DNA of 32,000 bases from Candidatus Brocadiia bacterium JP1. Its GTDB lineage: Bacteria > Planctomycetota > Brocadiia > Brocadiales > Bathyanammoxibiaceae. The translations under genes were made by a program, and so were the position numbers. The stretch lies in assembly GCA_051388875.1 (NCBI GenBank), contig JBMFFR010000001.1:58876-90875 (forward strand). Direction: 5' to 3'. The notes beneath the pieces are model-generated. The model saw nothing but the letters and a program-made list of their open reading frames with translations. It searched no databases and was not told where the DNA came from. Of the stretch, positions 1,466-30,891 are shown in pieces; the stretch's first letter is position 1, and the number at the start of each line of letters is the position of its first letter.

Positions 1466-1605
1466 TTTTTGTTTTAAGGTGAATAGATTAAATTTTGGTT
1501 TAAAATCACATGCTGGGCTAAAATACCAGAAAGGTAATCCCGTTTCAAGATATTTCAGTCCCTTGTAAATTTTCTATATTGCAATATTATAGCACAAAAA
1601 GTGCC

Positions 1606-2946
1606 ATGACTACTGAACAATTGAAAGAAGAAGGCGAAGAAAAGAGGCTCTCTCTCGGAGAACACCTGGAGGAACTGCGCCTCAGGGTAATTATCTGCAT
1701 CATCGCCCTTGTTATATGTTTCATAATCTCCTGGTTCTTTAAATCCCAAATCCTCTGGATAGCCAAAAGGCCCCACAGCCTTACTATGGAATCCCTCGGT
1801 CTATCGGCTACCCTTAAGGTGCTAAGCTATCAGGAAGGGTTCTTTGCCTATCTAAAGTTGTGTCTTATAAGCGCCTTATTCCTTTCTTACCCAATGGCCC
1901 TGTATCAGGCATGGAAGTTTGTAAGCGTTGGACTCTACGGGCACGAGCGACGTTACATTAAAATGTTCCTGCCCTTTTCCATGGGGGCCTTTGTGTTGGG
2001 TGGACTCTTCGGGTACTTTATCCTTATCCCTCTAGCACTCCAATTCTTGATCCGCATCCTGGGGCCTGACATAGAACCCATCATCACCATTAGTCAGTAC
2101 ATATCTCTTGTTTTTCTCCTAACGCTGGCCTTGGGATTAGTCTTTCAGTTGCCCCTGCTTATGTTATTACTTAACAGGATTGGGTTTATTAAAGCAGATG
2201 ACTACGTCAGGTGGAGAAAGTTTGCCATTCTGGGTGCATTTATACTTGCTGCCCTTATTACGCCTACTGCCGACCCCTTTACCCAGACCGGTACTGCCCT
2301 GCCCATAATGGCCCTTTACGAGGTGGGAATCCTGCTGGCAAGGCCTACCCGTAAGGGGTTTCTTTACGCAGGGGGCCTTGCAGGAGCAATTTTATTACTG
2401 ATTTTGGGTGCCTACGCCTACCTCACCCTCCCGCCCGTCGGTGAGGTGCAGAAGACTATGGGTGTGGTGGAAGCCTTACCAAAGGTTAAGCACGATACGA
2501 CCCCCGTAAAGCTTTACAAGGGCACCACTTTGCTCACAGCAAAGAGCTCCAGCGCTAAACTAGCCTTAAGGGGTGGCGGATATATTTACAAAGGCGAGGG
2601 CGCTACGCTATATATCAATGAATCCTCTAAGGTTGTATTTCTGGGGCAACAAAGTGTAGAAGTAGTGGAAGGAGAGCTCTTTGTTGCACTTCAGGAAGGT
2701 AAAGGCCCCTTTGCTATAAATACCACCTCCTGCACAATAAGCTTTGAGGGTGGAGAGATAAATATAAAGGTGCTTGCGAACACCACTACAATTACATGTG
2801 TAAAGGGCAGGGCGGTTGTAACAATTGGGGAAGAGAAGAAAGAGGTCCTGGGAGGTCGTCAACTCAAGGTAAGCCCCGGGGGAGAGCCAGTAGAGGTGGA
2901 AAAAGTGATAGAGTGGGTGAAAAGAGTGGAAAAGGGTGTAAATTAG
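1606..2946 (+). CDS. tatC: Sec-independent (Tat) translocase subunit TatC with an extra C-terminal TM segment and a FecR-like beta-rich domain
   Basis: The N-terminal ~255 aa show the TatC signature (LGEHLEELRLRVI) and six hydrophobic segments. This is followed by FLYAGGLAGAILLLILGAYAYLTL, a seventh TM segment. About 165 aa then follow the FecR-domain-like pattern (LYKGTTLLTAKSSSAKLAL...VVEGELFVAL...FAINTTSCTISFEGGEINI...VKGRAVVT). The track ORF opens with TTG at 1579, and I prefer the ATG at 1606 (MTTEQLKEE). Confidence 0.8.
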   Translation: MTTEQLKEEGEEKRLSLGEHLEELRLRVIICIIALVICFIISWFFKSQILWIAKRPHSLTMESLGLSATLKVLSYQEGFFAYLKLCLISALFLSYPMALYQAWKFVSVGLYGHERRYIKMFLPFSMGAFVLGGLFGYFILIPLALQFLIRILGPDIEPIITISQYISLVFLLTLALGLVFQLPLLMLLLNRIGFIKADDYVRWRKFAILGAFILAALITPTADPFTQTGTALPIMALYEVGILLARPTRKGFLYAGGLAGAILLLILGAYAYLTLPPVGEVQKTMGVVEALPKVKHDTTPVKLYKGTTLLTAKSSSAKLALRGGGYIYKGEGATLYINESSKVVFLGQQSVEVVEGELFVALQEGKGPFAINTTSCTISFEGGEINIKVLANTTTITCVKGRAVVTIGEEKKEVLGGRQLKVSPGGEPVEVEKVIEWVKRVEKGVN

Positions 2947-3080: not shown

Positions 3081-4034
3081 CTATTCCCTCTGCAACCTCT
3101 TTTCCAAAAATATATCCTTTCGCTGTATGAATAAAGTTATTTCAGTGGTCCTTCCCCGTGCTTCAGATACTTTAACGAACTCATCCAGCGTGTTCACTTT
3201 TTGTCCGTTTATTGCCAAAATGAGGTCCCCTACTAGCAACCCTGCCCTTTCGGAAGGGCAACCAGGGTAAATTTGTATCACCCTTGCCCCCTGCTCACCC
3301 TGAGAAACCACAAGTCCAGTAAAAAGGCTTAGAGGAGGTGGGCTTTGGGGCTTTTCCTCTGCCGTTCTGTTTATATCTTTGTCTTTCTTATAAGCCTCGT
3401 TTACGATGTCGGGCGTCTTGTCCTTTAATACTTCTTCCAGTTTGGGAATTGGTCTTCCAGATAATTCAGTCGCACTAAGAAGCGAGGTCACATATTCAAT
3501 CGGCACTGCAAAATTGATACTTTGCCCTTTCTCAATAAACATAGTAGCAATACCTATACACAGACCCGAAATATTTATTACTGGACTCCCGCTAGACCCA
3601 GGAGAAATAGGCGCACTTATTTGCAGGATTTTAGTTTTCTTATCTTCCGAAACTCTAATAGCGGATATAATTCCCTCTGTAACAGTATTTTGAAGTCCTA
3701 GCGGACTGCCAATAACAACTATCTTCTCCCCAATAGATACTTTATCTGAACTACCTAAAGGTATTATTGGAAGATTGTTAGTTTTTATCTTTAAAATGGC
3801 AATATCATTGATACTGTCCCTCTTTAAGACATTAGCCCAATAGTAGGTCCCATCAGGAAAGGTTACAAAAGGAGTCAAGCCTGGTTGGAGGACATGATTA
3901 TTGGTAACGATTATCCCATTTGGGTCAATCACAAATCCGGTTCCTTGCCCACCCTTTTGGAAATAAGAATCGTAAATAGAAATTGAAACTACTGAGTTCC
4001 AATACATTGAGGCTATATCTTGAGTAGATAACAC
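3081..4034 (-). CDS. Trypsin-like (S1C/HtrA-like) serine protease with a C-terminal PDZ domain and no evident signal peptide
   Basis: The catalytic triad contexts are TNNHVL (His), NDIAILKI (Asp) and PGSSGSPVI (Ser). The PDZ-like C-terminus reads GARVIQIYPGCPSERAGLLVGDLILAINGQKV. The ORF opens with GTG at 4034, and the in-frame upstream sequence has no ATG before a stop. The N-terminus is not hydrophobic. Confidence 0.8.
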   Translation of the reverse strand: MLSTQDIASMYWNSVVSISIYDSYFQKGGQGTGFVIDPNGIIVTNNHVLQPGLTPFVTFPDGTYYWANVLKRDSINDIAILKIKTNNLPIIPLGSSDKVSIGEKIVVIGSPLGLQNTVTEGIISAIRVSEDKKTKILQISAPISPGSSGSPVINISGLCIGIATMFIEKGQSINFAVPIEYVTSLLSATELSGRPIPKLEEVLKDKTPDIVNEAYKKDKDINRTAEEKPQSPPPLSLFTGLVVSQGEQGARVIQIYPGCPSERAGLLVGDLILAINGQKVNTLDEFVKVSEARGRTTEITLFIQRKDIFLEKRLQRE

Positions 4035-4067
4035 TCCAGTTTTAGTTTCTTGGCGAGATGGCAGATT

Positions 4068-4319
4068 TTATGCATATTCAGGTGGCTTTGGTGTGGTAGG
4101 AATTTGTGAACGAGCAATAGTCTTTCCAATATTTTCTTGACGTGCTACGGACTCTACCCAAAACCATAAAATCAGTAGCCCTATTGGCAGCGCAAATCTG
4201 ATTCTTCCAACTTTTTTTACTTGTAAAACCTGTGTTTTTATGATGGCATCTGCAATACTTCGTTTTGCATTTAAAAGGGAAGGTATAGTTGCTAAAGTAT
4301 AAAAAGGTATCAAAAACAT
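4068..4319 (-). pseudogene. Detached C-terminal part of the RDD domain of the upstream J-domain protein (1-nt frame change or sequencing indel)
   Basis: The 83-aa ORF ([34 protein letters not shown]...) supplies the distal part of an RDD-type membrane domain that begins in ORF 4310..5860. On the coding strand the junction reads tta cga tat tta tgt ttt tga. One extra T in the T5 run (A5 at 4312..4316 on the plus strand) would give a continuous ...[15 protein letters not shown]... reading frame. Confidence 0.55.
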
Positions 4320-5860
4320 AAATATCGTAAAAGGGCCCTCTTTTTCGTTAGTGGTGCTTCTGGAAGTGTAAAAACTTTAATACCTATGAATCTTTCCCCA
4401 ATGGTCTGTCGGCCGTGTGATTGCAGATACATGAAGTAGATAAAGTACAGTGGGAAAATTAGAAGATATCCTAGGAATACTAATAAGCTAGGATAAATTA
4501 CAATATATACATACCACAAAAGAGCTTCCATACCGCAGGTCAAAATTGAAAAATCTATAATGTAAGCAAAAACCCTTAACCAAATGCCAGCTCTAGGCGT
4601 GTCACTAGAGGTTGAAGGCCCCCCTTGTTTAGATTTCCCACTCATGCCCGACGCGGGCGGTTCTTGGTTTTGATGCCTCCATTGGTCATCCCAACTCCGC
4701 TCAGTTCTACTGTGAGATTCCTTTTTTGTTTTATCTTGGCAGTGTTGACATAATTTTCCCTCTCCTTCTGTTTCTTTTCCGCAAGATGGGCAAATTCTAG
4801 CGCTACGCCTAGAGTGCTTTCTAAGTTCATTAGCACACAACGCCATTAATTCTGGAAGTATAACCGCATTGTCTTTTGACATTGGTACTCTTGTAAATTC
4901 ACGCTGTCCTTTACCTATTACGTTTTTGTATAATATGATGTAGCCTTCCTGAATATCAGAACCATCGTATTGATTCCATGCAAGAAACTCTGGATCTCTA
5001 AACCATCTTTCCTTCCAAAATCCGGTTTTTGATAGTGTTATTCCCGCAATTGATACAGAGCTTTCAATCTCTGATATTACACGATAAAATTTTTTTACTA
5101 TGATTGGTTCAATGAGAGATTTAGACAAAAAAATCAATTTACCAAACAATTCCGTCTTTTCTTTATTTCCTGCTAGAAAAAGCCCAGAGCTAAAAGTAAC
5201 CAATATCATGTCTGAGTCCGTCTTTATGGAAAAACTGTAGCTCTGGTCTATAAGAATTATTGAAGTTCGTTCTGAATCATAAGAAATGGACACAATGTCT
5301 TTATAAAAAAGTTTTTCCCCATCATATTCAACATACACCTCTGAAAAAGTAATCGCCTTATTTTTAGAAATTTGGAGTGTAATAAAATCTTTTTTATCTG
5401 TGAAAGGATAGTCAAAGACTTCACTACAAGAAGGGCATGTAACTTGCAAGGCCAGTCCTTCAGGGACTTTAAGCTTTTGCTCACAGCTAGGGCAAGTGAT
5501 AATTACTTTCTCCGGCTCTTGTTCAACATCAGGTTCTTCTTCCTCTTCTTCCTCTTCAGTGCTTCGTGTTTCCCAATAATCGTTAGTCTGATATTTACCT
5601 CTTTCTTCCGTCTCTTTCTCTAGCTCCTTTAAGTAGGCATCGTACTGCCTTCGTTTCTCCGGGTCGCTTAAAATTTGGTACGCTTCATTTATCAACTTAA
5701 CTTTTTCCTGAGCCTCTTGCTTCAGTCGGGATAAGTAGGAGGGTATCCTGTCGGGATGGTATTCTTTGGCTAGACGCCGAAACGAAACAGAAATTTCTTG
5801 CTGAGTTGCCGATTCGGCAACTTCTAAGATTTCATAATAATGCGGATTATCAAAACGCAT
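4310..5860 (-). CDS. J-domain protein with poly-Glu linker, two zinc-ribbon motifs, an uncharacterised central domain and a C-terminal RDD-family membrane domain
   Basis: The N-terminal J domain reads YYEILEV...[12 protein letters not shown]...[18 protein letters not shown] and includes the HPD motif. It is followed by an EEEEEEEE tract and then by [10 protein letters not shown]...CPSCSEVF and [19 protein letters not shown]. The C-terminal hydrophobic region ([14 protein letters not shown]...[14 protein letters not shown]) resembles an RDD domain. Confidence 0.75.
5534..5557 (-). repeat. Trinucleotide run (ttc/ctc x8 on the plus strand) encoding the Glu8 tract of the J-domain protein
   Basis: The plus strand reads ttcttcttcctcttcttcctcttc, which contains a duplicated 9-nt unit ttcttcctc. 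It translates as EEEEEEEE on the minus strand. Confidence 0.8.
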
Positions 5861-5880
5861 TTTTAAACAAGTAAATTCAA

Positions 5881-6195
5881 TTATCTGGGTTTAATTCTTA
5901 TTGGGATTTCTTCACCCGTATGTGGGTCTTCTATATAGCCACGATAACCTCCACGATAATCAGGTCTTAGCCTTATATCACCTCGGTGGAAGTCGTAACG
6001 ATGCTTTATTTCTCCCTTATATCCTCCTAAATAATCGGGCCTCAACCTAATGTCATAACTATCCCGCAAAAGGTCGTAAGGGTTTTCTATCTCTCCCCTA
6101 TAGCCTCCCAGGTAATTCGGCCTTAGTCTCACATCATAGCCGTCCAGTTCACCACTATAGCCTCCAAAGTAATCCTGCCTAAGTTTTATATCTTG
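5881..6195 (-). repeat. Four to five degenerate in-frame tandem repeats (19-27 aa period) within the lipoprotein gene
   Basis: The protein-level units are [48 protein letters not shown] and [16 protein letters not shown], followed by a terminal IPIRIKPR. The matching DNA recurs as ggccttagtctcac / ggcctcaacctaat / ggtcttagccttat. Confidence 0.75.
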
Positions 6196-10678: not shown

Positions 10679-11173
10679 TTAGTTGCGGATAATTTCTTCA
10701 ATAAAACTGTCTACGGAAACACCTTTTCCCACAACCTTTTCATCGCTTATCGTAAACTTCCCCTGATACATACCCACCACCTTGAAGTAGGATAGAGCGC
10801 TCTTCTTTAGGAATAGGATTACATCTTCCTTCTCATTGAAAGCCACATCATTAGAGCCGACCTGGGTTATGTCACCCACTGTACCTCCGGGGGTTTTTAT
10901 AGTAACGACCTTTCCCTCTACACCTTGGTTCTTTATCCACCTGGACACCTTTACCTCCACGAAGGTCCATATGAAAGTCCTATCCTCGTTCCACTCGCTC
11001 CTAACTGTTAGCACCTTAGCCCTTACTACTGCGTCTGCACTTTGTTTCAATTCTGACAGTTCCGCTTTTCTCATGAGGGCAAAGACTTCTTGTCTGGTAG
11101 GAAGACAGATTGTGGCAATGCCCAAGAAAATACTCACTATCCCAACCCAATTGAAATAAGTACTGACGCCCAT
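10679..11173 (-). CDS. Hypothetical membrane-anchored protein, probably co-transcribed with the metalloprotease
   Basis: I prefer the ATG at 11173 over the track start at 11212 because aaggagg lies 7 nt upstream of it. The N-terminal TM segment reads FNWVGIVSIFLGIATICL, and the rest is beta-rich with no motif I recognise. A 30-nt gap separates it from the downstream protease gene. Confidence 0.6.
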   Translation of the reverse strand: MGVSTYFNWVGIVSIFLGIATICLPTRQEVFALMRKAELSELKQSADAVVRAKVLTVRSEWNEDRTFIWTFVEVKVSRWIKNQGVEGKVVTIKTPGGTVGDITQVGSNDVAFNEKEDVILFLKKSALSYFKVVGMYQGKFTISDEKVVGKGVSVDSFIEEIIRN

Positions 11174-11679
11174 TTTTCTGCCTCCTTTGGAATGCCTGGT
11201 TTTTTCAGCCACATTAGTATCCTAATGTGGTATCTTTTCTAGATTAGTAGGGAGCAATTGAGATACCAACCACTCTCAATATTTTCCCCGTTCCGTTTAT
11301 TAGAAGTTATGTGGTTAAAGGAGTGAGGCTTACGAGATAAGAGAAGATCTATTCAGGTAAGATATGTGGAAAAGAGGATAGTAATCCTTTATGGAATTTT
11401 TCAGATAATTAATGAATCTACACTATGGAATTAATTCAATAGTACTAAGTTCTTATAACCGGCAGGCGAAGGTGGAGGGGGAACGGTGGGTGTATATAGG
11501 CTTTTTATTCCAATAACCCTCAAAATTACATTCATTCATTAATCTTTAGAGCGCCATGGACCATTTTATATGGCATGTAGGAGTAAGACAGGCTTCAGTG
11601 AAAAAAAGTCTTATACTTTTTTAATAAATTTAATGTTATAATTATGTCAATAAAGAAACAAAGTTTTATATAATTTTAA

Positions 11680-11708
11680 TTGACTTCTTTATAATAACTT
11701 CGTAAAAT
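11680..11708 (+). promoter_or_regulatory. Candidate sigma70-type promoter
   Basis: The sequence reads TTGACT (11680..11685), a 17-nt spacer, then TAAAAT (11703..11708). It sits in an AT-rich 570-bp intergenic region, about 75 nt upstream of ORF 11782. Confidence 0.5.
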
Positions 11709-11781
11709 ATTTGTTCTATTCATTATTGAGAAAAACACTAGAGCGTATTGCTTAAGATAAGGTGTTGAAAGGACATGTAAG

Positions 11782-13011
11782 TTGACAGGTGTATCTGCTT
11801 ATATACAAAATAGAGCCTTATATACAAATGCCGTAACTCATATTAAGAGAAGGACGACTTACGCCAATAAGAAGGTGACCAGAGAAGAGATGGGTCGTCT
11901 GGTGGAGAAGGCCTCAGAATGTTTAAGGGATAATGAGACCTACCGCTGGAATGCTGATATAAATGGTGTAATAGTCCAGTTACAAACTAACTCCTTACAT
12001 CAGTATGACTTCTGGGTAGAGAACTGGTTTCCATCTCCCTTTGATGAAACTCCAGATGCGGTAATATATTCGGTGTTGGGCGTCCCTGGAAGGGATTCCG
12101 AGGCCCACTTCTGCAAGGCTACTAAGACCATAGTTTTCTTTAACACAGACTACTACGGACAATGTAAGAGTTGGGCCTTGGGGCTTGCCGACTGTGTACT
12201 GAGAAATAAGGGCATTCATTCCATTCATGGCTCATGTGTGGACATGCAAGGGGTGGGCATCCTAATGATTGCTCCCACTGGAACTGGCAAGAGTACACAT
12301 TCCTATAAACTCCTAGATCTGCCCGAAAGTAATGTACATTCAGATGACTGGGTTTACGTTGATTACGCTGAAGAGAATGGGAAGGTGATGGATGCAAGGG
12401 CTGCCATCTCGGAAAGGAATTTCTACCTGAGAACTGATATAGCAAAAGAAATCCCTCGCCTGAGAGAGTTGTTTAAACGTTGTAAGACAGAGAACGTGAT
12501 AACCCGCAGGGAAGACTGTGAGCGTACATCTTCTATGGACAATGCCAAAATGGGAAAATTTAGATGCGGCTTTGACGAAGGGGATGACTGTTGTCTCTGG
12601 TGTTTCCCTAATAGCCGGGCAATGCTAGACCCCACCTGGGTAGTAGGCAGGGATAGATTTGTTAAGGTAACCAACATAAGGCATGTAATATTTCTCACCA
12701 GGGATGATGCCATGCCGCAGACGAAGAAACTGGATGAGGATGAGACTGTCAAGATTCTTAAGGAAGGGCGGTTTATGGTACTTCCAGGGGCAGGTCCCAG
12801 GTCTGAATGGGGTAAGATGAGAAACGAACCATGGTTTAATCCCTATTTACTGGACCCTGATGACGAGTTTCAGGAAAACTCTTTCAGGAAGCTCTGTCAA
12901 GTCGCGGATTCTTACATGGTAAACACAGCCAAGGGTTCTGTTGAGGAGAATCAGGAGATTATCCGCAGTATCGCCCTTAGCAAGGAGCTTTGTATCCCAC
13001 AACCATGCTAG
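11782..13011 (+). CDS. HPr-kinase / PEP-carboxykinase-like P-loop protein with a Cys-rich insert; function unknown
   Basis: The segment IHGSCVDMQGVGILMIAPTGTGKSTHSYKLL...HSDDWVYV resembles the HprK C-terminal / PEPCK kinase-1a P-loop followed by its acidic motif. A Cys cluster reads CERTSS...FRCGFDEGDDCCLWCF. The start is uncertain, either TTG at 11782 or ATG at 11890 (Met37). Confidence 0.55.
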   Translation: MTGVSAYIQNRALYTNAVTHIKRRTTYANKKVTREEMGRLVEKASECLRDNETYRWNADINGVIVQLQTNSLHQYDFWVENWFPSPFDETPDAVIYSVLGVPGRDSEAHFCKATKTIVFFNTDYYGQCKSWALGLADCVLRNKGIHSIHGSCVDMQGVGILMIAPTGTGKSTHSYKLLDLPESNVHSDDWVYVDYAEENGKVMDARAAISERNFYLRTDIAKEIPRLRELFKRCKTENVITRREDCERTSSMDNAKMGKFRCGFDEGDDCCLWCFPNSRAMLDPTWVVGRDRFVKVTNIRHVIFLTRDDAMPQTKKLDEDETVKILKEGRFMVLPGAGPRSEWGKMRNEPWFNPYLLDPDDEFQENSFRKLCQVADSYMVNTAKGSVEENQEIIRSIALSKELCIPQPC

Positions 13012-28283: not shown

Positions 28284-28429
28284 ACTTTGAGCAAAATTGG
28301 GACACCTTGACGTCTCGTAACTAAATTCTCAGGGACTTATTGTCATTGCTAGTCCGCAATAATCCTTCTTGACTTTACTGAATAATATAAGAAAATCATG
28401 AAATAAAAGGAATTGTCTTGGAGAAATTT

Positions 28430-29311
28430 ATGGATAGAGATAAGCCTATTGTCAATAATGAGTTACCTCTAATTGTACCTCACATTTCAGGTGAAAAATT
28501 AAAACGCACAAGAAGTCTAAAGCGTGCAAATGATTTAAATGGCAAGACCTGGTTACAATACTCTATAAGCGTCTGGAACGATATTAAAAAAACTAGCGAA
28601 GAGATTAAGCTTAAACATCCTGCGATGTTTCCCTCCCCGCTTGCTGAAAGGCTCATACAGGTATATACAACTAACCAACAAAAAAATATCTTAGACCCAT
28701 TTGTCGGTGTGGGATCAACCCTTTTGGCAGCAAAGAACCTTGGTAAACACGGAGTAGGATTTGATATTTCAAAGGAGTATGTTGAAATTGCACAAAATAG
28801 ACTCAACCAGGGACACTTTGCTGAAAAGGGCGAATATAAATTATACTGTGAAGATGCTAGAAACTTGTTTAATCATGTTAGAAGAGGTACGATAGACTTG
28901 TGTATCACCTCCCCTCCATATTGGAATATCCTTTCACAAAAAAGAACCGCAGACTCTAAAGAAATCCGTGATTATGCTGAAAAGGGCAGCAATCTAGGAA
29001 TCATCCAGGATTATAAGGCCTTTTTACAAGAATTGAGGGCTATCTTTGCAAAGGTCAAGACTGTTTTAAAACCATTTGCCCGCTGTTGTGTCATAGTGAT
29101 GGACATAAGAAAAGGGCCAAAATTTTATCCTTTTCATATGGATATAACTCGTTTTATGACAGAAGACTTAGGATTTATCTTAGAGGACATTATAATTTGG
29201 GATAGAAGGTCGGAGTATAACAATCTAAGACCTTTAGGTTATCCTTCAGTTTTTCGTATTAATAAAATACATGAATTTATTCTTATATTCCAAAAGCTAA
29301 AAGAACATTAA
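28430..29311 (+). CDS. DNA methyltransferase of the N4/N6 (PF01555-like) type with an SPPY catalytic motif; motif I precedes motif IV
   Basis: The segment HPAMFPSPLAERLI...ILDPFVGVGSTLLAAKNLGKHGVGFDISKEYVEIAQNRL carries the AdoMet-binding FxGxG region. It is followed about 70 aa later by GTIDLCITSPPYW and AFLQELRAIFAKVKTVLKP. I prefer the ATG at 28430, which has ggaga 5-6 nt upstream, over the track TTG at 28418. Confidence 0.8.
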   Translation: MDRDKPIVNNELPLIVPHISGEKLKRTRSLKRANDLNGKTWLQYSISVWNDIKKTSEEIKLKHPAMFPSPLAERLIQVYTTNQQKNILDPFVGVGSTLLAAKNLGKHGVGFDISKEYVEIAQNRLNQGHFAEKGEYKLYCEDARNLFNHVRRGTIDLCITSPPYWNILSQKRTADSKEIRDYAEKGSNLGIIQDYKAFLQELRAIFAKVKTVLKPFARCCVIVMDIRKGPKFYPFHMDITRFMTEDLGFILEDIIIWDRRSEYNNLRPLGYPSVFRINKIHEFILIFQKLKEH

Positions 29312-29316
29312 AAACT

Positions 29317-30270
29317 ATGCTCATTACAAAAAACCAGGATTATATGGATGAGGATGTAGCATATTTATTAGGGCTTATTCTTGTGAGGGGCACACTTACA
29401 GAAGACAAAGACATAAAAAGATTAGCTATAGAATTTCCTTACAAGTCATTGGAGGCTAAAGGAATAAGCACTTCCTACAACCAAAAATCAGCGTTGCAAT
29501 TATCAGCCAATTCTATTAGAGACCGAATAAATGAGCTGCTAGGCGTTGATTTGAAGGTAGAGAATATGAGTGGTTCAGTAGTCCTTTCCGCAGTCTTTAC
29601 AAAAAATACTCTGGCGTGGAGAAATTTAAAGTTACTTTTAGGAGATAAGAGTAGTTACTCCGAATTTGAACTTAATCCGATTTTCTATGAGTTCGAAATA
29701 AGTATTAAAAAGGAATTGGTTAGGGGTATAGCAGATGCCACAGGATTTATAAGGCCTTCTAACGAATATTATGGCAGACATAGAATTTATCTAGAAATAA
29801 ACAATGCTAATTGGTATTTACCTATTCAAATATGTAAGCTGTTACAAGAGATGGGTGTAGGTGTGCAGTTAATACAATGGGGTCATCCTAACATGAGGGA
29901 GCCCGGCAAGACAGACGTGGATGCCGAAAAGTCTTCGTGGGCAAGGGAACACCAAATTAAGATATTTGCGGAAGAGTTTGAATCGGTAGGTTTTTACTCC
30001 CCACACAAACAAAAGATATTGGAAGAATTTGCTGAGTATAATAAAAATATGTTCAAGAAAAAGCATGAAGAGTGTAACCCTTTAGAAAAAGGGATAAGAG
30101 AGCCTAAGCCTAAACATCCTTGTGAAAACCACCTGAAGATACCTACCGAAATAAGAGGAAGGCATTTTGATGGGTACTGGCAAATATGTCAGGGATTAGG
30201 TTGCATGCAGGGTAAACCAAGTCAGCAGATAAGCTTTGACTTTATGGATGTATTAGAAAGCGATGTATAG
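29317..30270 (+). CDS. Protein with two degenerate LAGLIDADG-like motifs and a C-terminal Cys/His-rich tail; possible DNA-recognition or nuclease subunit
   Basis: Motif 1 is [15 protein letters not shown] (res ~13-27). Motif 2 is [14 protein letters not shown] (res ~132-145), about 120 aa later. Each is followed by a beta-like segment and an hxxhxxLLxxxGh helix ([15 protein letters not shown]; [15 protein letters not shown]), as in double-motif LAGLIDADG folds. The usual catalytic acidic residue before the final Gly is R in motif 1 and T in motif 2. The tail reads HEECNPLEK...HPCENH...WQICQGLGC. The ORF starts 5 nt after the methyltransferase stop. Confidence 0.45.
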
Positions 30271-30757
30271 TAAAGAATCACAGATGTATCCTCCCGTGAG
30301 ATACTGGTTAACCTCTTTATTAAAAGAGAAGCACAAGAAAAAAAAAGTAATTGTAGAAGATACTTCTAAAATTACATTAAGACGATTTATAGAAGATACT
30401 AGCCTCCAGAGGGCCTTTCCCCAATATATTGCTTATGACATAAAACTAGATGTAACAGGCTTTATAATTGATTCTGAAGCTAGTGCAGAGTTAGTATTTG
30501 TTGAGTGCAAGTTGGCCCCACTTACTCTTAGAGATTTGTGTCAGTTAATAGGATATAGCCTCGTTGCACGACCTAGTTATGCTTTTTTATTGTCTCCTGC
30601 TGGGATAAGCGATGCATTAAAATTTCTGATACAAATTCATGGAAGGTATGACATCCTTAGATATAATAAAGATAAGTTTATAAGGATTTCACAATGGGAT
30701 CCATCACGTTGCGAAATAATTCCATCAACTACCCTACCCCCAGGCATGCATGTTTAG
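30263..30757 (+). CDS. Small protein with a PD-(D/E)xK-like nuclease motif
   Basis: The 164-aa ORF contains [27 protein letters not shown], an Asp followed by ExK at the end of a hydrophobic strand. Its ATG at 30263 overlaps the upstream TAG (30268..30270) by 8 nt. An alternative ATG lies at 30284. Confidence 0.5.
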
Positions 30758-30891
30758 CTTTGTTGTATAGGAAACTTTGTTAAGTTGACCTGTTATTCGC
30801 CTGGAAAGCACTCCTCTCTTTTTCTTCATAGACACTATGCTCACAATTACTGTCTTTTTGTTTAAGGTGAATGAACGGACTTTATTCCCCC

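What the first reader, a model, noticed from the sequence alone, without database searches (positions are those of the whole stretch)
29317..30270. Double LAGLIDADG-like protein with both catalytic acids replaced, encoded next to a methyltransferase
The motifs [10 protein letters not shown] and [10 protein letters not shown] are spaced about 120 aa apart. Each is followed by a strand and an LLxxxG[VI] helix, which matches the pseudo-dimeric LAGLIDADG layout. The acidic residue that normally coordinates the metal is Arg in the first motif and Thr in the second.

Degenerate LAGLIDADG scaffolds are known as DNA binders, for example WhiA-type regulators and maturases. To my knowledge the recognised restriction-endonuclease folds are PD-(D/E)xK, HNH, GIY-YIG, PLD and half-pipe, and LAGLIDADG is not among them. 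An additional 110-aa tail carries a Cys/His cluster (HEEC...HPCENH...CQGLGC) that could bind zinc.

This protein may therefore be a specificity subunit for the adjacent small nuclease.
Basis: inference. Interest (0 to 1): 0.7.

Follow-up and report, generated by a model that had tools for sequence, protein, structure and literature searches.

The report
Dead LAGLIDADG subunit of restriction system
A protein with the fold of a homing endonuclease, but without its catalytic residues, is always encoded between a DNA methylase and a small intact nuclease; this points to a restriction enzyme built on a scaffold not previously linked to restriction systems.

Summary
ORF 29317-30270 encodes a 317-aa protein. 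[quoted passage not shown] All top PDB and viral structure matches are LAGLIDADG proteins: intein homing endonucleases, I-DmoI, WhiA and maturases.

The two metal-binding acid positions are R/K and a small residue, never D/E, in the 170+ of 188 relatives aligned there. No Pfam, NCBIfam, PADLOC, PHROGs or PDB sequence model detects the family.

The gene belongs to a rare but widespread, low-GC, three-gene cassette in bacteria and archaea. The order is an N4/N6 DNA methyltransferase (TSPPY), this protein, then a 164-aa protein with a complete E..D..ExK..QxxxY PD-(D/E)xK nuclease signature and fold. The three genes co-evolve (r 0.82-0.89). In about 22 lineages the LAGLIDADG-like protein and the nuclease are fused into one chain.

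The best reading is a two-component Type II restriction enzyme, with a dead LAGLIDADG scaffold for targeting or assembly and a small catalytic subunit. The partnership is shown by genomics. DNA binding, zinc binding and cleavage are inferred. A universally conserved His/Glu cluster leaves open a second, novel active site. I found no published precedent for a LAGLIDADG-fold component in a restriction-modification system.

The parts
28418..29311 (+). DNA methyltransferase gene (297 aa from a TTG start; the ATG at 28430 is a likely alternative start). It has HPAMFP (residue 67), DPFVGVG (motif I, residue 93) and SPPY (motif IV, residue 165).
   Evidence: Pfam N6_N4_Mtase E 4e-34. PADLOC MTase_II E 3e-50. 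Homologs sit directly upstream of BIG in nearly all loci, at E 1e-56 to 1e-112. TSPPY is present in 72/72. The S-P-P-Y form suggests N4-cytosine methylation; this is an inference from established motif knowledge.
29317..30270 (+). 'BIG': a 317-aa double LAGLIDADG-fold protein without catalytic acids. This is the finding.
   Evidence: ORF. AF2 pLDDT 91.5 and pTM 0.88. Foldseek PDB and BFVD hits are all LAGLIDADG proteins. At least 245 clusters at 90% identity and 428 representatives at 50% identity.
29350..29637 (+). N-terminal LAGLIDADG domain (residues 12-107): alpha1, beta1, beta2, alpha2, beta3, beta4, alpha3.
   Evidence: DSSP elements H12-24, E25-30, E33-41, H56-75, E79-84, E87-94, H99-107.
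29356..29391 (+). Motif 1, [12 protein letters not shown] (residues 14-25). R24 occupies the catalytic-acid position.
29698..30051 (+). C-terminal LAGLIDADG domain (residues 128-245), with an insertion between beta3' and beta4'.
   Evidence: DSSP elements H128-142, E143-151, E154-161, H168-178, E185-187, E212-217, H229-245.
29713..29745 (+). Motif 2, [11 protein letters not shown] (residues 133-143). D140 is the structural first Asp of 'DxDG'. T142 occupies the catalytic-acid position.
29878..29955 (+). WGHPNxREP...WAREHQ insertion (residues 188-213). H190, P191, N192, E211 and H212 are conserved at 95% or more in every architectural class.
   Evidence: Function is untested: a zinc staple, the SMALL-docking surface, or a new active site.
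30052..30228 (+). Basic Cys/His tail (residues 246-304). C253, H267, E270, H283, C291 and C296 are conserved. It is mostly coil but confidently modelled.
   Evidence: pLDDT 83-97. C173, C253 and C291 are lost together, becoming D/W/N, in most fused forms. Mean net charge of the tail is +6.0.
30263..30757 (+). 'SMALL': a 164-aa PD-(D/E)xK nuclease. Its start overlaps the BIG stop by 8 nt.
   Evidence: AF2 pLDDT 95.9. Top fold matches are AF1548, MspJI, AspBHI, NucS, EcoT38I, BsaWI and BamHI. The E5-Y9-D63-E81-K83-Q94-Y98 signature is intact in 102 of about 111 copies.
30449..30556 (+). Catalytic core of SMALL: D63 (30449-30451), E81-C-K83 (30503-30511), Q94-L-I-G-Y98 (30542-30556).
28284..30891 (.). 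Low-GC island holding the three-gene cassette, between housekeeping genes.
   Evidence: Cassette GC is 0.365, against 0.48 upstream and 0.51 downstream. The flanks are a PabB-like chorismate-binding enzyme, a class IV aminotransferase and an ABC transporter. The same cassette sits in unrelated contexts in other genomes.

Best explanation
The 317-aa protein (BIG) is a domesticated, catalytically dead, monomeric double-LAGLIDADG scaffold. It forms the large subunit of a two-component Type II restriction endonuclease.

The 164-aa PD-(D/E)xK protein (SMALL), which is translationally coupled to BIG, supplies DNA cleavage. The upstream TSPPY methyltransferase protects host DNA.

BIG is proposed to recruit or position SMALL on unmethylated target DNA. 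Its second LAGLIDADG domain and its basic Cys/His tail would be stapled together by one or two zinc ions and would provide the docking and DNA-contact surface.

What is shown:
- the fold of BIG
- the loss of its canonical acids
- the nuclease signature and fold of SMALL
- the obligate three-gene association, its co-evolution and the natural fusions

What is inferred:
- physical complex formation
- DNA binding by BIG
- zinc binding
- that SMALL is the only catalytic centre
- that the system restricts DNA at all
For: Fold of BIG:
- All 50 listed PDB hits are LAGLIDADG proteins, E 1e-6 to 1.6e-4.
- 117 viral hits at E<=1e-3, best 1e-8, are all LAGLIDADG or intein DOD endonucleases.

Loss of the canonical active site:
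- Position 24 is R/K and position 142 is a small residue in nearly all 188 relatives, and no aligned sequence has D/E at either.
- R24 aligns with the I-DmoI catalytic Asp.
- WhiA, a proven non-nuclease, likewise has Arg and Gly at these positions (PMC3384342).

SMALL is a nuclease:
- E..D..ExK..QxxxY is invariant.
- The model has pLDDT 95.9 and an alpha-beta-beta-beta-alpha-beta core.
- The top structural matches are PD-(D/E)xK cleavage modules such as MspJI, AspBHI, AF1548 and NucS.

Partnership:
- The order MTase, BIG, SMALL on one strand holds in essentially all of 80 species loci and 4 metagenome loci.
- The BIG-SMALL junction overlaps or lies within 15 nt in 67/72 loci.
- Distance-matrix correlations are 0.82-0.89, against a maximum of 0.09 for shuffles.
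- About 22 representatives are BIG-SMALL single-chain fusions; the SMALL HMM scores E 1e-13 to 1e-35 in their C-terminal parts.

Restriction-modification character:
- The cassette is a low-GC island among housekeeping genes.
- Its distribution is patchy, 126 of about 185,579 species, yet spans many bacterial and archaeal phyla.
- In the two MTase-less loci (L043, L082) BIG has lost its N-terminal domain while SMALL is intact. This fits SMALL being harmless without full-length BIG.

Precedent: Type IIT enzymes such as BspD6I, BtsI and BsrDI use a large recognition subunit plus a small non-specific catalytic subunit (PMC4081073).
Against: - No experiment or complex model shows that BIG binds DNA or SMALL.
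- The window protein is slightly acidic (net -1 to -4). Family-wide, the N-domain beta1-beta2 saddle is neutral (mean -0.5), unlike I-CreI or I-DmoI. Positive charge sits mainly in the tail.
- WhiA shows that a degenerate LAGLIDADG domain may give up DNA binding altogether.
- A 157-aa enzyme, R.PvuII, is a complete restriction endonuclease (my own knowledge), so SMALL could be self-sufficient.
- H190, N192, E211, H212, K231, E270 and H283 are conserved at 95% or more across all architectures. That is stronger conservation than a pure adaptor needs and would also fit a catalytic metal site.
- In fused systems, which have two MTases and so probably an asymmetric site, the second SMALL copy is catalytically dead. 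It is then unclear where the second strand cut comes from.
- The window system has a single MTase, which usually implies a symmetric site, whereas BIG is an asymmetric monomer.
Confidence: 0.6

Rival explanations
1. BIG is itself a nuclease or nickase with a new metal site built from the conserved His/Glu/Asn/Lys cluster (H190, N192, E211, H212, K231, E270, H283) in the beta3'-beta4' insertion and the tail. The enzyme would be Type IIT-like, with two different catalytic centres: BIG cuts one strand and SMALL cuts the other.
For: - These polar residues are conserved at 95% or more in the standard, fused, long and divergent classes, even where the Cys3 site is lost.
- They stay conserved although the accompanying second MTase changes (gamma-class, D12, or none), so they are unlikely to be specificity determinants.
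- Fused systems carry two MTases, the hallmark of an asymmetric site, but only one active PD-(D/E)xK plus a dead paralog. That leaves a need for a second catalytic centre (Type IIT description in PMC4081073).
- By analogy with I-CreI topology (my recollection, not tested), the beta3-beta4 turn lies near the central bases and the former active site.
Against: - The residue set matches no known nuclease motif, and no profile or fold hit points to a nuclease site other than LAGLIDADG.
- Four His plus Cys296 are equally well explained as a structural zinc staple that fixes a coil-rich tail.
- H212 and N192/E211 are replaced in some members, such as P0271 and P0208.
Confidence: 0.15
2. SMALL is a complete, self-sufficient small Type IIP restriction endonuclease. 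BIG is an accessory factor: a WhiA-like or controller-like regulator of expression, or a chaperone or inhibitor that times nuclease activity after the cassette enters a new host.
For: - WhiA is a LAGLIDADG-derived transcription factor with the same Arg substitution.
- Controller genes commonly precede and overlap restriction genes, and R.PvuII is only 157 aa (both my own knowledge).
- SMALL is on average basic, +3.3.
- The single MTase fits a homodimeric nuclease acting on a palindrome.
Against: - Covalent BIG-SMALL fusions in about 22 lineages are hard to reconcile with a transcriptional timer.
- BIG has no HTH or other known regulator domain.
- Fused systems carry their own wHTH/MarR genes.
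- SMALL's closest structural relatives are non-specific cleavage modules attached to separate recognition domains, such as MspJI and AspBHI.
- SMALL survives intact in MTase-less loci where BIG is truncated.
- 317 aa and about 35 near-invariant residues are excessive for a controller.
Confidence: 0.12
3. The cassette is not a classical restriction system. BIG would be a relic or variant homing or mobility function (the cassette as a selfish element that targets its own insertion site), or part of a methylation-linked DNA repair or other defence pathway.
For: - LAGLIDADG ancestry comes from mobile elements.
- The cassette is clearly mobile.
- Related architectures attach BIG to large unknown proteins next to a helicase (L088) or to AAA ATPases (L093), and a rearranged MTase-less form recurs in two phyla.
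Against: - No intron, intein or target-site context was found, and no flanking repeats.
- The catalytic acids needed for homing are absent.
- The strict MTase linkage and co-evolution are the signature of restriction-modification.
Confidence: 0.08

Closest known systems
WhiA / DUF199 (e.g. PDB 3hyi, 8dy7)
   Same: Both are bacterial, monomeric, double LAGLIDADG folds with the catalytic acids lost. Arg sits at the motif-1 acid position and a small residue at the motif-2 position (PMC3384342; fold hits). Both are domesticated host-side uses of a homing-endonuclease scaffold with an added C-terminal module.
   Different: WhiA carries a C-terminal HTH domain, is a conserved Gram-positive regulator, and sits in a housekeeping operon. 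BIG has a Cys/His tail instead and no WhiA_N Pfam match (1 of 50 members at E 0.15). It is patchily distributed on a mobile methylase-nuclease cassette.
Monomeric and intein-type LAGLIDADG (DOD) homing endonucleases (I-DmoI, PI-SceI, PI-PfuI, TliVMA, I-AniI)
   Same: These are the best structural matches: PDB E 1e-6 to 1e-4 and BFVD E 1e-8. The motif helices align in register, and the helix preceding beta3 has the characteristic ..LLxxLGV.. ending.
   Different: BIG has no metal-binding Asp/Glu in either motif. It has no intron, intein or free-standing homing context. It has an insertion and tail with conserved His/Cys. No Pfam LAGLIDADG model reaches threshold.
Heterodimeric Type IIS/IIT restriction enzymes with a large recognition subunit and a small catalytic subunit (R.BspD6I/BstNBI 604+186 aa, BtsI, BsrDI)
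   Same: The proposed division of labour is the same: a large subunit directs a roughly 160-190-aa PD-(D/E)xK subunit that lacks specificity of its own (PMC4081073). The genes are adjacent. Some variants of the present family have two MTases, as Type IIT systems do.
   Different: In those enzymes the large subunit is itself a PD-(D/E)xK nickase. Here the large subunit has a LAGLIDADG fold and no recognisable active site. There is no sequence similarity. The window's cassette has a single MTase.
Engineered chimeras of inactive I-SceI with PvuII, FokI or MutH (PMC3258161, PMC2685105, PMC3627573)
   Same: The concept is the same: a catalytically dead LAGLIDADG protein acts as the targeting module for a PD-(D/E)xK cleavage module. 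The natural BIG-SMALL fusions have the same domain order as these constructs.
   Different: Those are laboratory constructs that recognise 18-bp sites. The natural family is paired with an ordinary-sized MTase, so it presumably recognises a short site. Whether BIG supplies the specificity is unproven.
BslI (alpha2beta2, zinc-containing; M + R-alpha + R-beta genes)
   Same: BslI is a three-gene system with an N4-cytosine MTase, two different restriction subunits that are inactive alone, and structural zinc (PMC4081073; details of the 2000 and 2003 papers are from my memory).
   Different: M.BslI is much larger, and its zinc sites are Cys4 motifs. I could not obtain the BslI sequences or the paper, so homology is untested. 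PADLOC restriction-enzyme models did not hit BIG or SMALL.
MspJI/AspBHI-type enzymes (recognition domain + PD-(D/E)xK cleavage domain)
   Same: SMALL's best structural matches include their C-terminal cleavage domains. Both have a modular recognition-plus-cleavage architecture.
   Different: Those are methylation-dependent Type IV enzymes with SRA-like readers and no cognate MTase. Here a cognate MTase is obligatory and the partner domain has a LAGLIDADG fold.

Membership tests
LAGLIDADG homing endonuclease | [quoted passage not shown] | tested here: met
   AF2 secondary-structure order. Foldseek top hits are exclusively LAGLIDADG proteins in PDB and BFVD.
LAGLIDADG homing endonuclease | LAGLIDADG-type motif at the C-terminal end of the first helix of each domain | tested here: met
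   [10 protein letters not shown] and [10 protein letters not shown] are conserved family-wide. They align in register with I-HjeMI and I-AniI and with I-DmoI.
LAGLIDADG homing endonuclease | Acidic metal-binding residue at the penultimate position of each motif | tested here: not met
   Position 24 is R/K (162/188) and position 142 is A/T/G/S/C (178/188). Neither is D or E in any aligned sequence.
LAGLIDADG homing endonuclease | Encoded in an intron or intein, or as a free-standing homing gene | tested here: not met
   BIG is always the middle gene of an MTase-BIG-nuclease operon.
LAGLIDADG homing endonuclease | Significant match to the curated sequence models (LAGLIDADG_1/2/3, Hom_end) | tested here: not met
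   The window protein has zero Pfam hits. Among 50 members only 2 hit LAGLIDADG_3 (E 0.055) and 2 hit Hom_end (E 0.086).
WhiA/DUF199 | Degenerate double LAGLIDADG domain lacking catalytic acids | tested here: met
WhiA/DUF199 | C-terminal helix-turn-helix DNA-binding domain | tested here: not met
   The C-terminus is a coil-rich Cys/His tail with no HTH family hit.
WhiA/DUF199 | Match to the WhiA_N / WhiA models | tested here: not met
   1 of 50 members at E 0.15. No NCBIfam hit.
Type II restriction-modification system | Cognate DNA methyltransferase encoded next to the nuclease gene(s) | tested here: met
   N6_N4_Mtase E 4e-34. A homologous MTase is adjacent in nearly all loci and co-evolves with the other two genes.
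Type II restriction-modification system | Nuclease with an intact catalytic motif of a known restriction-enzyme fold | tested here: met
   SMALL has D63...E81-x-K83, plus E5 and QxxxY, and a PD-(D/E)xK fold.
Type II restriction-modification system | Mobile, patchy distribution with atypical composition | tested here: met
   126 of about 185,579 species across many phyla. Cassette GC is 0.365 against 0.48-0.51 in the flanks. The flanks differ between genomes.
Type II restriction-modification system | Sequence-specific cleavage blocked by the cognate methylation | not testable with these tools
   This needs biochemistry. A k-mer avoidance survey of 537 kb of host flanks was uninformative.
Type IIT (large recognition subunit + small catalytic subunit) | Two different subunits that act together | tested here: inconclusive
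   Synteny, translational coupling, co-evolution and natural fusions imply joint action. No physical evidence.
Type IIT (large recognition subunit + small catalytic subunit) | Two different catalytic sites, one per strand | tested here: inconclusive
   SMALL's site is intact and BIG's canonical site is absent. A conserved His/Glu cluster in BIG has unknown function.
Type IIT (large recognition subunit + small catalytic subunit) | Two MTase activities for an asymmetric site | tested here: not met
   The window has one 297-aa MTase. This feature is met only in the variants: D12+N6_N4 fusion MTases and two convergent MTases in fused systems.
PD-(D/E)xK nuclease superfamily (for the 164-aa partner) | alpha-beta-beta-beta-alpha-beta core with D at the start of beta2 and (D/E)xK at the end of beta3 | tested here: met
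   One search gives the strands (64-71 and 74-82). Searches give the invariant residues. One search gives fold matches with probability up to 0.99, although the best E is only 2e-3.

The most novel reading that the evidence does not exclude
The LAGLIDADG scaffold has been re-armed. The strictly conserved His/Asn/Glu/Lys cluster in the beta3'-beta4' insertion and the tail would form a new metal-dependent active site, making BIG a strand-specific nuclease that works with the PD-(D/E)xK subunit. That would be the first restriction endonuclease built on the LAGLIDADG fold, with a catalytic centre unrelated to the canonical one. LAGLIDADG would no longer be the one major homing-endonuclease fold without a restriction-enzyme counterpart.
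Probability: 0.15. Interest if true: 0.88.

Novelty: new variant of a known kind. Interest (0 to 1): 0.72.

Why it matters
Homing endonucleases and restriction enzymes are known to share the HNH, GIY-YIG and PD-(D/E)xK catalytic folds. LAGLIDADG has been the exception. It is known only from homing enzymes, maturases and the WhiA regulator, and the standard Type II review does not mention it.

This family, with at least 428 representatives at 50% identity in bacteria and archaea including Asgard lineages, would add a LAGLIDADG-derived component to restriction-modification. It would be a second, independent domestication of the fold.

It would also be a natural counterpart of the engineered 'dead meganuclease + restriction nuclease' chimeras. 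It therefore offers a compact, evolved solution for coupling a LAGLIDADG platform to a generic cleavage module, which could be useful for nuclease engineering.

The architectural series offers ready-made natural experiments on how multi-subunit restriction enzymes are assembled and disarmed:
- split and fused forms
- one or two MTases
- active and dead nuclease paralogs
- N-terminally truncated, MTase-less forms

Practically, current defence-system and restriction-modification annotation tools (PADLOC, Pfam, NCBIfam) miss both non-MTase genes. These systems are presumably scored today as orphan methyltransferases.

Tried and rejected
Sequence-family searches:
- The 317-aa protein against Pfam, NCBIfam, PADLOC, PHROGs and PDB sequences gave no hits.
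- The family profile against PDB gave only sub-threshold I-HjeMI and I-AniI matches.
- A per-member Pfam scan gave only faint LAGLIDADG echoes.
- So the LAGLIDADG assignment rests on fold and motif register, not on sequence statistics.
- HH-suite against I-CreI gave nothing. Against I-DmoI it gave 37% probability over 34 columns.

Structure resources:
I therefore could not test whether the conserved His, Cys and Glu residues cluster, or where they lie relative to the DNA-binding saddle.

Recognition site: pooled k-mer under-representation in 537 kb of host flanks showed only the generic palindrome avoidance (CTAG, GATC, GGCC, GGGCCC). GGACC at O/E 0.70 cannot be interpreted without controls.

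Island boundaries and regulation:
- No flanking direct or inverted repeats of note were found.
- Promoter-like sites were fewer than in shuffles.
- No tRNA or Rfam element is present in the window.

Hypotheses rejected:
- 'A homing endonuclease gene invaded a restriction-modification operon'. The synteny is near-absolute, the genes co-evolve, the catalytic acids are missing, and fusions to the nuclease exist.
- 'D11/D13 form a replacement active site'. These residues are not conserved in the fused subfamily, and they sit at the distal, N-terminal end of helix 1.

BslI identity could not be tested because the paper is not held. PADLOC restriction-enzyme models did not hit.

The profile of the 164-aa protein against PDB sequences gave nothing relevant.
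Full report
**Observation.** I call the protein BIG.
- [10 protein letters not shown] occupies residues 16-25 and [10 protein letters not shown] occupies residues 134-143, 118 residues apart.
- BIG belongs to a well-populated family that every source calls 'hypothetical'. There are 245 clusters at 90% identity in the word-indexed search and 428 representatives at 50% identity in the exhaustive HMMER search.
- In a 50-sequence alignment the motifs read [15 protein letters not shown] and EFxRGIADxxG. Y16, G19, G25, G137 and D140 are invariant.

**Fold.**
- AlphaFold2 on that alignment gives a confident model (pLDDT 91.5, pTM 0.88). The element order is H12-24, E25-30, E33-41, H56-75, E79-84, E87-94, H99-107, then H128-142, E143-151, E154-161, H168-178, E185-187, E212-217, H229-245. 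[quoted passage not shown]
- Foldseek against the PDB returns 62 hits at E<=1e-3. All 50 listed hits are LAGLIDADG proteins: the TliVMA, PI-PfuI and PI-SceI intein endonuclease domains, I-DmoI, WhiA, the bI3 maturase, I-AniI and E-DreI.
- Foldseek against viral models returns 117 such hits, the best at E 1e-8. All are intein DOD domains or free-standing LAGLIDADG endonucleases.
- Sequence methods barely see the relationship. There are no hits in Pfam, NCBIfam, PADLOC, PHROGs or PDB. The profile gives only sub-threshold I-HjeMI and I-AniI matches, aligned on motif 1. Two of 50 members touch LAGLIDADG_3 or Hom_end at E about 0.06-0.09.

**Catalytic positions.**
- In canonical enzymes the penultimate motif residue binds the metal (PMC3384342). 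In BIG these positions are R24 and T142.
- Across 188 full-length domains, position 24 is R (152) or K (10). Position 142 is A, T, G, S or C (178). Neither is ever Asp or Glu.
- D140 corresponds to the first, structural Asp of the 'DxDG' ending.
- T. maritima WhiA has Arg and Gly at the same two positions and does not cut DNA.

**The neighbours.**
- Upstream, at 28418-29311, lies an N6_N4-type DNA methyltransferase (Pfam E 4e-34; PADLOC MTase_II E 3e-50). Motif I (DPFVGVG) precedes motif IV (SPPY).
- Downstream, overlapping BIG by 8 nt, is a 164-aa ORF (30263-30757) that I call SMALL. It has no family hit.
- In 29 diverse homologs, including fused forms, SMALL has invariant E5, Y9, D63, E81, K83, Q94, Y98 and P104. 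That is the E..D..ExK..QxxxY signature of RecB/Cas4-like PD-(D/E)xK nucleases (the assignment of the motif to that subgroup is from my own knowledge).
- Its AF2 model (pLDDT 95.9) has the alpha-beta-beta-beta-alpha-beta core. D63 opens beta2 and E81/K83 close beta3.
- Its top structural matches are AF1548, AspBHI, MspJI, NucS, EcoT38I, BsaWI, Cap4 and BamHI, all of the PD-(D/E)xK fold. The E-values are modest (2e-3 to 0.1), with probabilities up to 0.99.

**A conserved mobile cassette.**
- Four homologs looked up in long contigs, and 80 loci from species-representative genomes, show the same order on one strand: homologous MTase (E 1e-56 to 1e-112), BIG, SMALL. This holds wherever the contig extends far enough.
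- There are 126 relatives among about 185,579 species.
- Carriers include Bathyarchaeia, Nitrososphaerales, Caldarchaeum, Asgard archaea, Chloroflexi, Planctomycetes, Poribacteria, Zixibacteria, Ignavibacteria and Bacteroidetes, among them the cultured Alkaliflexus imshenetskii.
- Flanking genes differ completely between genomes.
- In the window the cassette has GC 0.365, against 0.48-0.51 for its flanks. It sits between a PabB-like gene, a class IV aminotransferase and an ABC transporter.
- Over 72 complete cassettes, pairwise distance matrices correlate at r = 0.885 (BIG-SMALL), 0.859 (BIG-MTase) and 0.815 (SMALL-MTase). Label shuffles reach at most 0.09.
- The BIG-SMALL junction overlaps or lies within 15 nt in 67 of 72 cassettes, and all 72 MTases carry TSPPY.

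**Fusions and variants.**
- About 22 representatives of 539-557 aa are single-chain BIG-SMALL fusions. The SMALL profile scores E 1e-13 to 1e-35 over residues of about 395-540. This is classical Rosetta-stone evidence that the two proteins work together.
- The fused genes have a reproducible context in three independent loci. Each is followed by a second SMALL paralog whose catalytic residues are replaced (for example D-N-E-E), and by two convergent MTases: the family MTase plus a gamma-class or Dam-class adenine MTase.
- In Bacteroidetes and Ignavibacteria the MTase is a 610-aa fusion of a Dam-class domain and the family domain.
- Two MTase activities indicate an asymmetric target (PMC4081073), which suits an asymmetric monomeric scaffold. 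The window's variant has only one MTase.
- All second SMALL copies are catalytically dead, whereas 102 of about 111 copies overall keep the full signature.
- Two MTase-less loci from different phyla (L043, L082) share an insertion of a 341-389-aa ORF plus a dead SMALL. The insertion removed the MTase and BIG's N-terminal domain but left SMALL intact. This is consistent with SMALL being harmless without full-length BIG.
- Other forms attach BIG to the C-terminus of 991-1299-aa proteins, next to the family MTase, a PD..ExK-like ORF and a large helicase.

**Conserved residues outside the motifs.**
- Across all classes the most conserved positions are G137, D140, W188, H190, P191, N192, E211, H212, K231, E270, H283 and C296.
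- C173, C253 and C291 are CCC in about 90% of standard forms. In most fused forms they are replaced together by D/W/N, and those fused forms carry a Cys4 ribbon inserted in the N-domain. This is strong evidence that the three Cys form one site, most simply a zinc site tying the tail to helix alpha2'.
- H190, H212, H267 and H283 remain His in most members of every class.
- They may form a second zinc staple that fixes the coil-rich but confidently modelled tail (pLDDT 83-97), a docking surface for SMALL, or a new catalytic site. I could not decide between these because model coordinates are not exposed.
- Family-wide, BIG is basic (mean +7.6), but the charge lies in the tail (+6.0) and the C-domain (+2.9). 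The N-domain beta1-beta2 hairpin is neutral. If BIG binds DNA, it probably does not simply copy the homing-endonuclease saddle.

**Mechanism.**
- I consider the most likely reading (0.6) to be a two-component Type II restriction enzyme.
  - BIG is a catalytically dead LAGLIDADG scaffold that positions the SMALL nuclease on unmethylated sites.
  - SMALL is a generic PD-(D/E)xK cleavage module.
  - The TSPPY MTase, probably N4-cytosine, protects the host.
- The closest functional precedents are the large-plus-small Type IIT enzymes such as BspD6I, BtsI and BsrDI, and the engineered fusions of inactive I-SceI with PvuII, FokI or MutH.
- The rivals are:
  - BIG carries a new active site (0.15).
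  - SMALL is self-sufficient and BIG is a regulator or chaperone (0.12).
  - The cassette has a non-restriction role (0.08).

**Novelty.**
- Searches of the held literature found no report of a LAGLIDADG-fold component in a restriction-modification system.
- The 2014 Type II review lists the PD-D/EXK, HNH, GIY-YIG and half-pipe classes and has zero occurrences of 'LAGLIDADG'.
- Homology to BslI, the one known zinc-containing M+R-alpha+R-beta enzyme, could not be tested.
- I classify the finding as a new variant of a known kind: a restriction-modification system with an unprecedented subunit fold.

Noticed in passing
L089 2857-3354; L090 6635-7141; L092 2327-2815; L043 4476-4961; L082 4401-4952; L084 3613-3915: Wherever a second copy of the small nuclease gene occurs, its catalytic residues are replaced (D-N-E-E, D-K-R-P, D-D-E-V, D-K-R-C at positions 63/81/83/94), while the primary copy is intact. 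This resembles active/inactive nuclease-domain pairs such as XPF-ERCC1 or Mus81-Eme1, and suggests that SMALL works as a dimer.
   Followed up: partly
L043 3297-6347 and L082 2681-6238: A rearranged, MTase-less architecture is shared by a Terriglobia and a Pirellulales genome. A homologous 341-389-aa ORF of unknown function plus a dead SMALL copy is inserted at the MTase/BIG junction. L082 keeps a 194-aa MTase remnant. BIG lacks its N-terminal LAGLIDADG domain, and the downstream SMALL is intact. This could be decay or a derived system.
   Followed up: partly
L047 2792-4633 (also L044, L045, L048, L052, L055, L058, L059, L067, L072, L074): In Bacteroidetes and Ignavibacteria cassettes the MTase is a ~610-aa fusion of a Dam-class (D12, LDPPY) adenine MTase and the family TSPPY MTase. 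An extra 124-aa ORF with no family hit (L047 4630-5004) lies between the MTase and BIG.
   Followed up: partly
L088 1211-10186 (protein P0166; also P0165, P0171, P0174, P0208): Proteins of 991-1299 aa carry the BIG domain at their extreme C-terminus, after about 700-1000 residues with no Pfam match. In L088 the gene is followed by the family MTase, a 217-aa ORF with a PD..ExK-like SPDGF...LLVELK motif, a 312-aa ORF and an 1853-aa DEAD/RecQ/RNase_T helicase.
   Followed up: partly
L077 2847-5544: A Thermoanaerobacterales locus has the MTase and BIG but no SMALL. A convergent 303-aa HNH_2 protein (PF13391, E 3e-10) lies immediately downstream. It may be a nuclease swap or an unrelated neighbouring Type IV-like enzyme.
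   Followed up: no
Proteins P0157, P0159, P0176, P0183, P0191, P0219 (fused forms), residues about 40-75: Fused BIG-SMALL proteins carry a CPxC...CxxC zinc-ribbon-like insertion in the N-terminal LAGLIDADG domain. Most of them have lost the C173/C253/C291 trio, as if one metal site was exchanged for another.
   Followed up: partly
Proteins P0225, P0226, P0195; L093/L094: Divergent relatives (363-446 aa) have an expanded N-terminal region and a shortened WGHPNLGRGLREHQ loop. P0226 sits next to an AAA_22 ATPase with no MTase visible on the short contigs, so the domain may also be used outside restriction-modification cassettes.
   Followed up: no
Protein P0188 (353 aa): This is a chimera of the N-terminal ~135 residues of the family MTase (E 1e-36) joined to the C-terminal two-thirds of BIG. 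It is probably a deletion derivative or an assembly artefact.
   Followed up: no
window 28418-28432: The MTase ORF is called from TTG at 28418, but an ATG four codons downstream (28430, MDRDKP...) is a plausible true start. A TTGACT-16-GAAAAT promoter-like site lies at 28369-28396, though such sites are fewer here than in shuffled sequence.
   Followed up: partly
window 28418-29311: The MTase matches the beta-class Pfam model in two separate stretches. Motif I (residue 93) comes before motif IV (residue 165), so the motif order is circularly permuted relative to that model. It also hits RNA guanine-N2 MTase-like families (UPF0020, TIGR01177) weakly.
   Followed up: no
window 1579-2946 and 4310-5860: Two unusual domain combinations occur elsewhere in the window: a TatC translocase fused to a FecR-like domain (455 aa), and a DnaJ J-domain protein with a C-terminal RDD membrane domain (516 aa).
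   Followed up: no
window 4001-6000 and 11001-12000: Two further low-GC patches (0.36-0.39, against a window mean of 0.45) may be other horizontally acquired segments. The 409-aa ORF at 11782-13011 has no Pfam hit.
   Followed up: no
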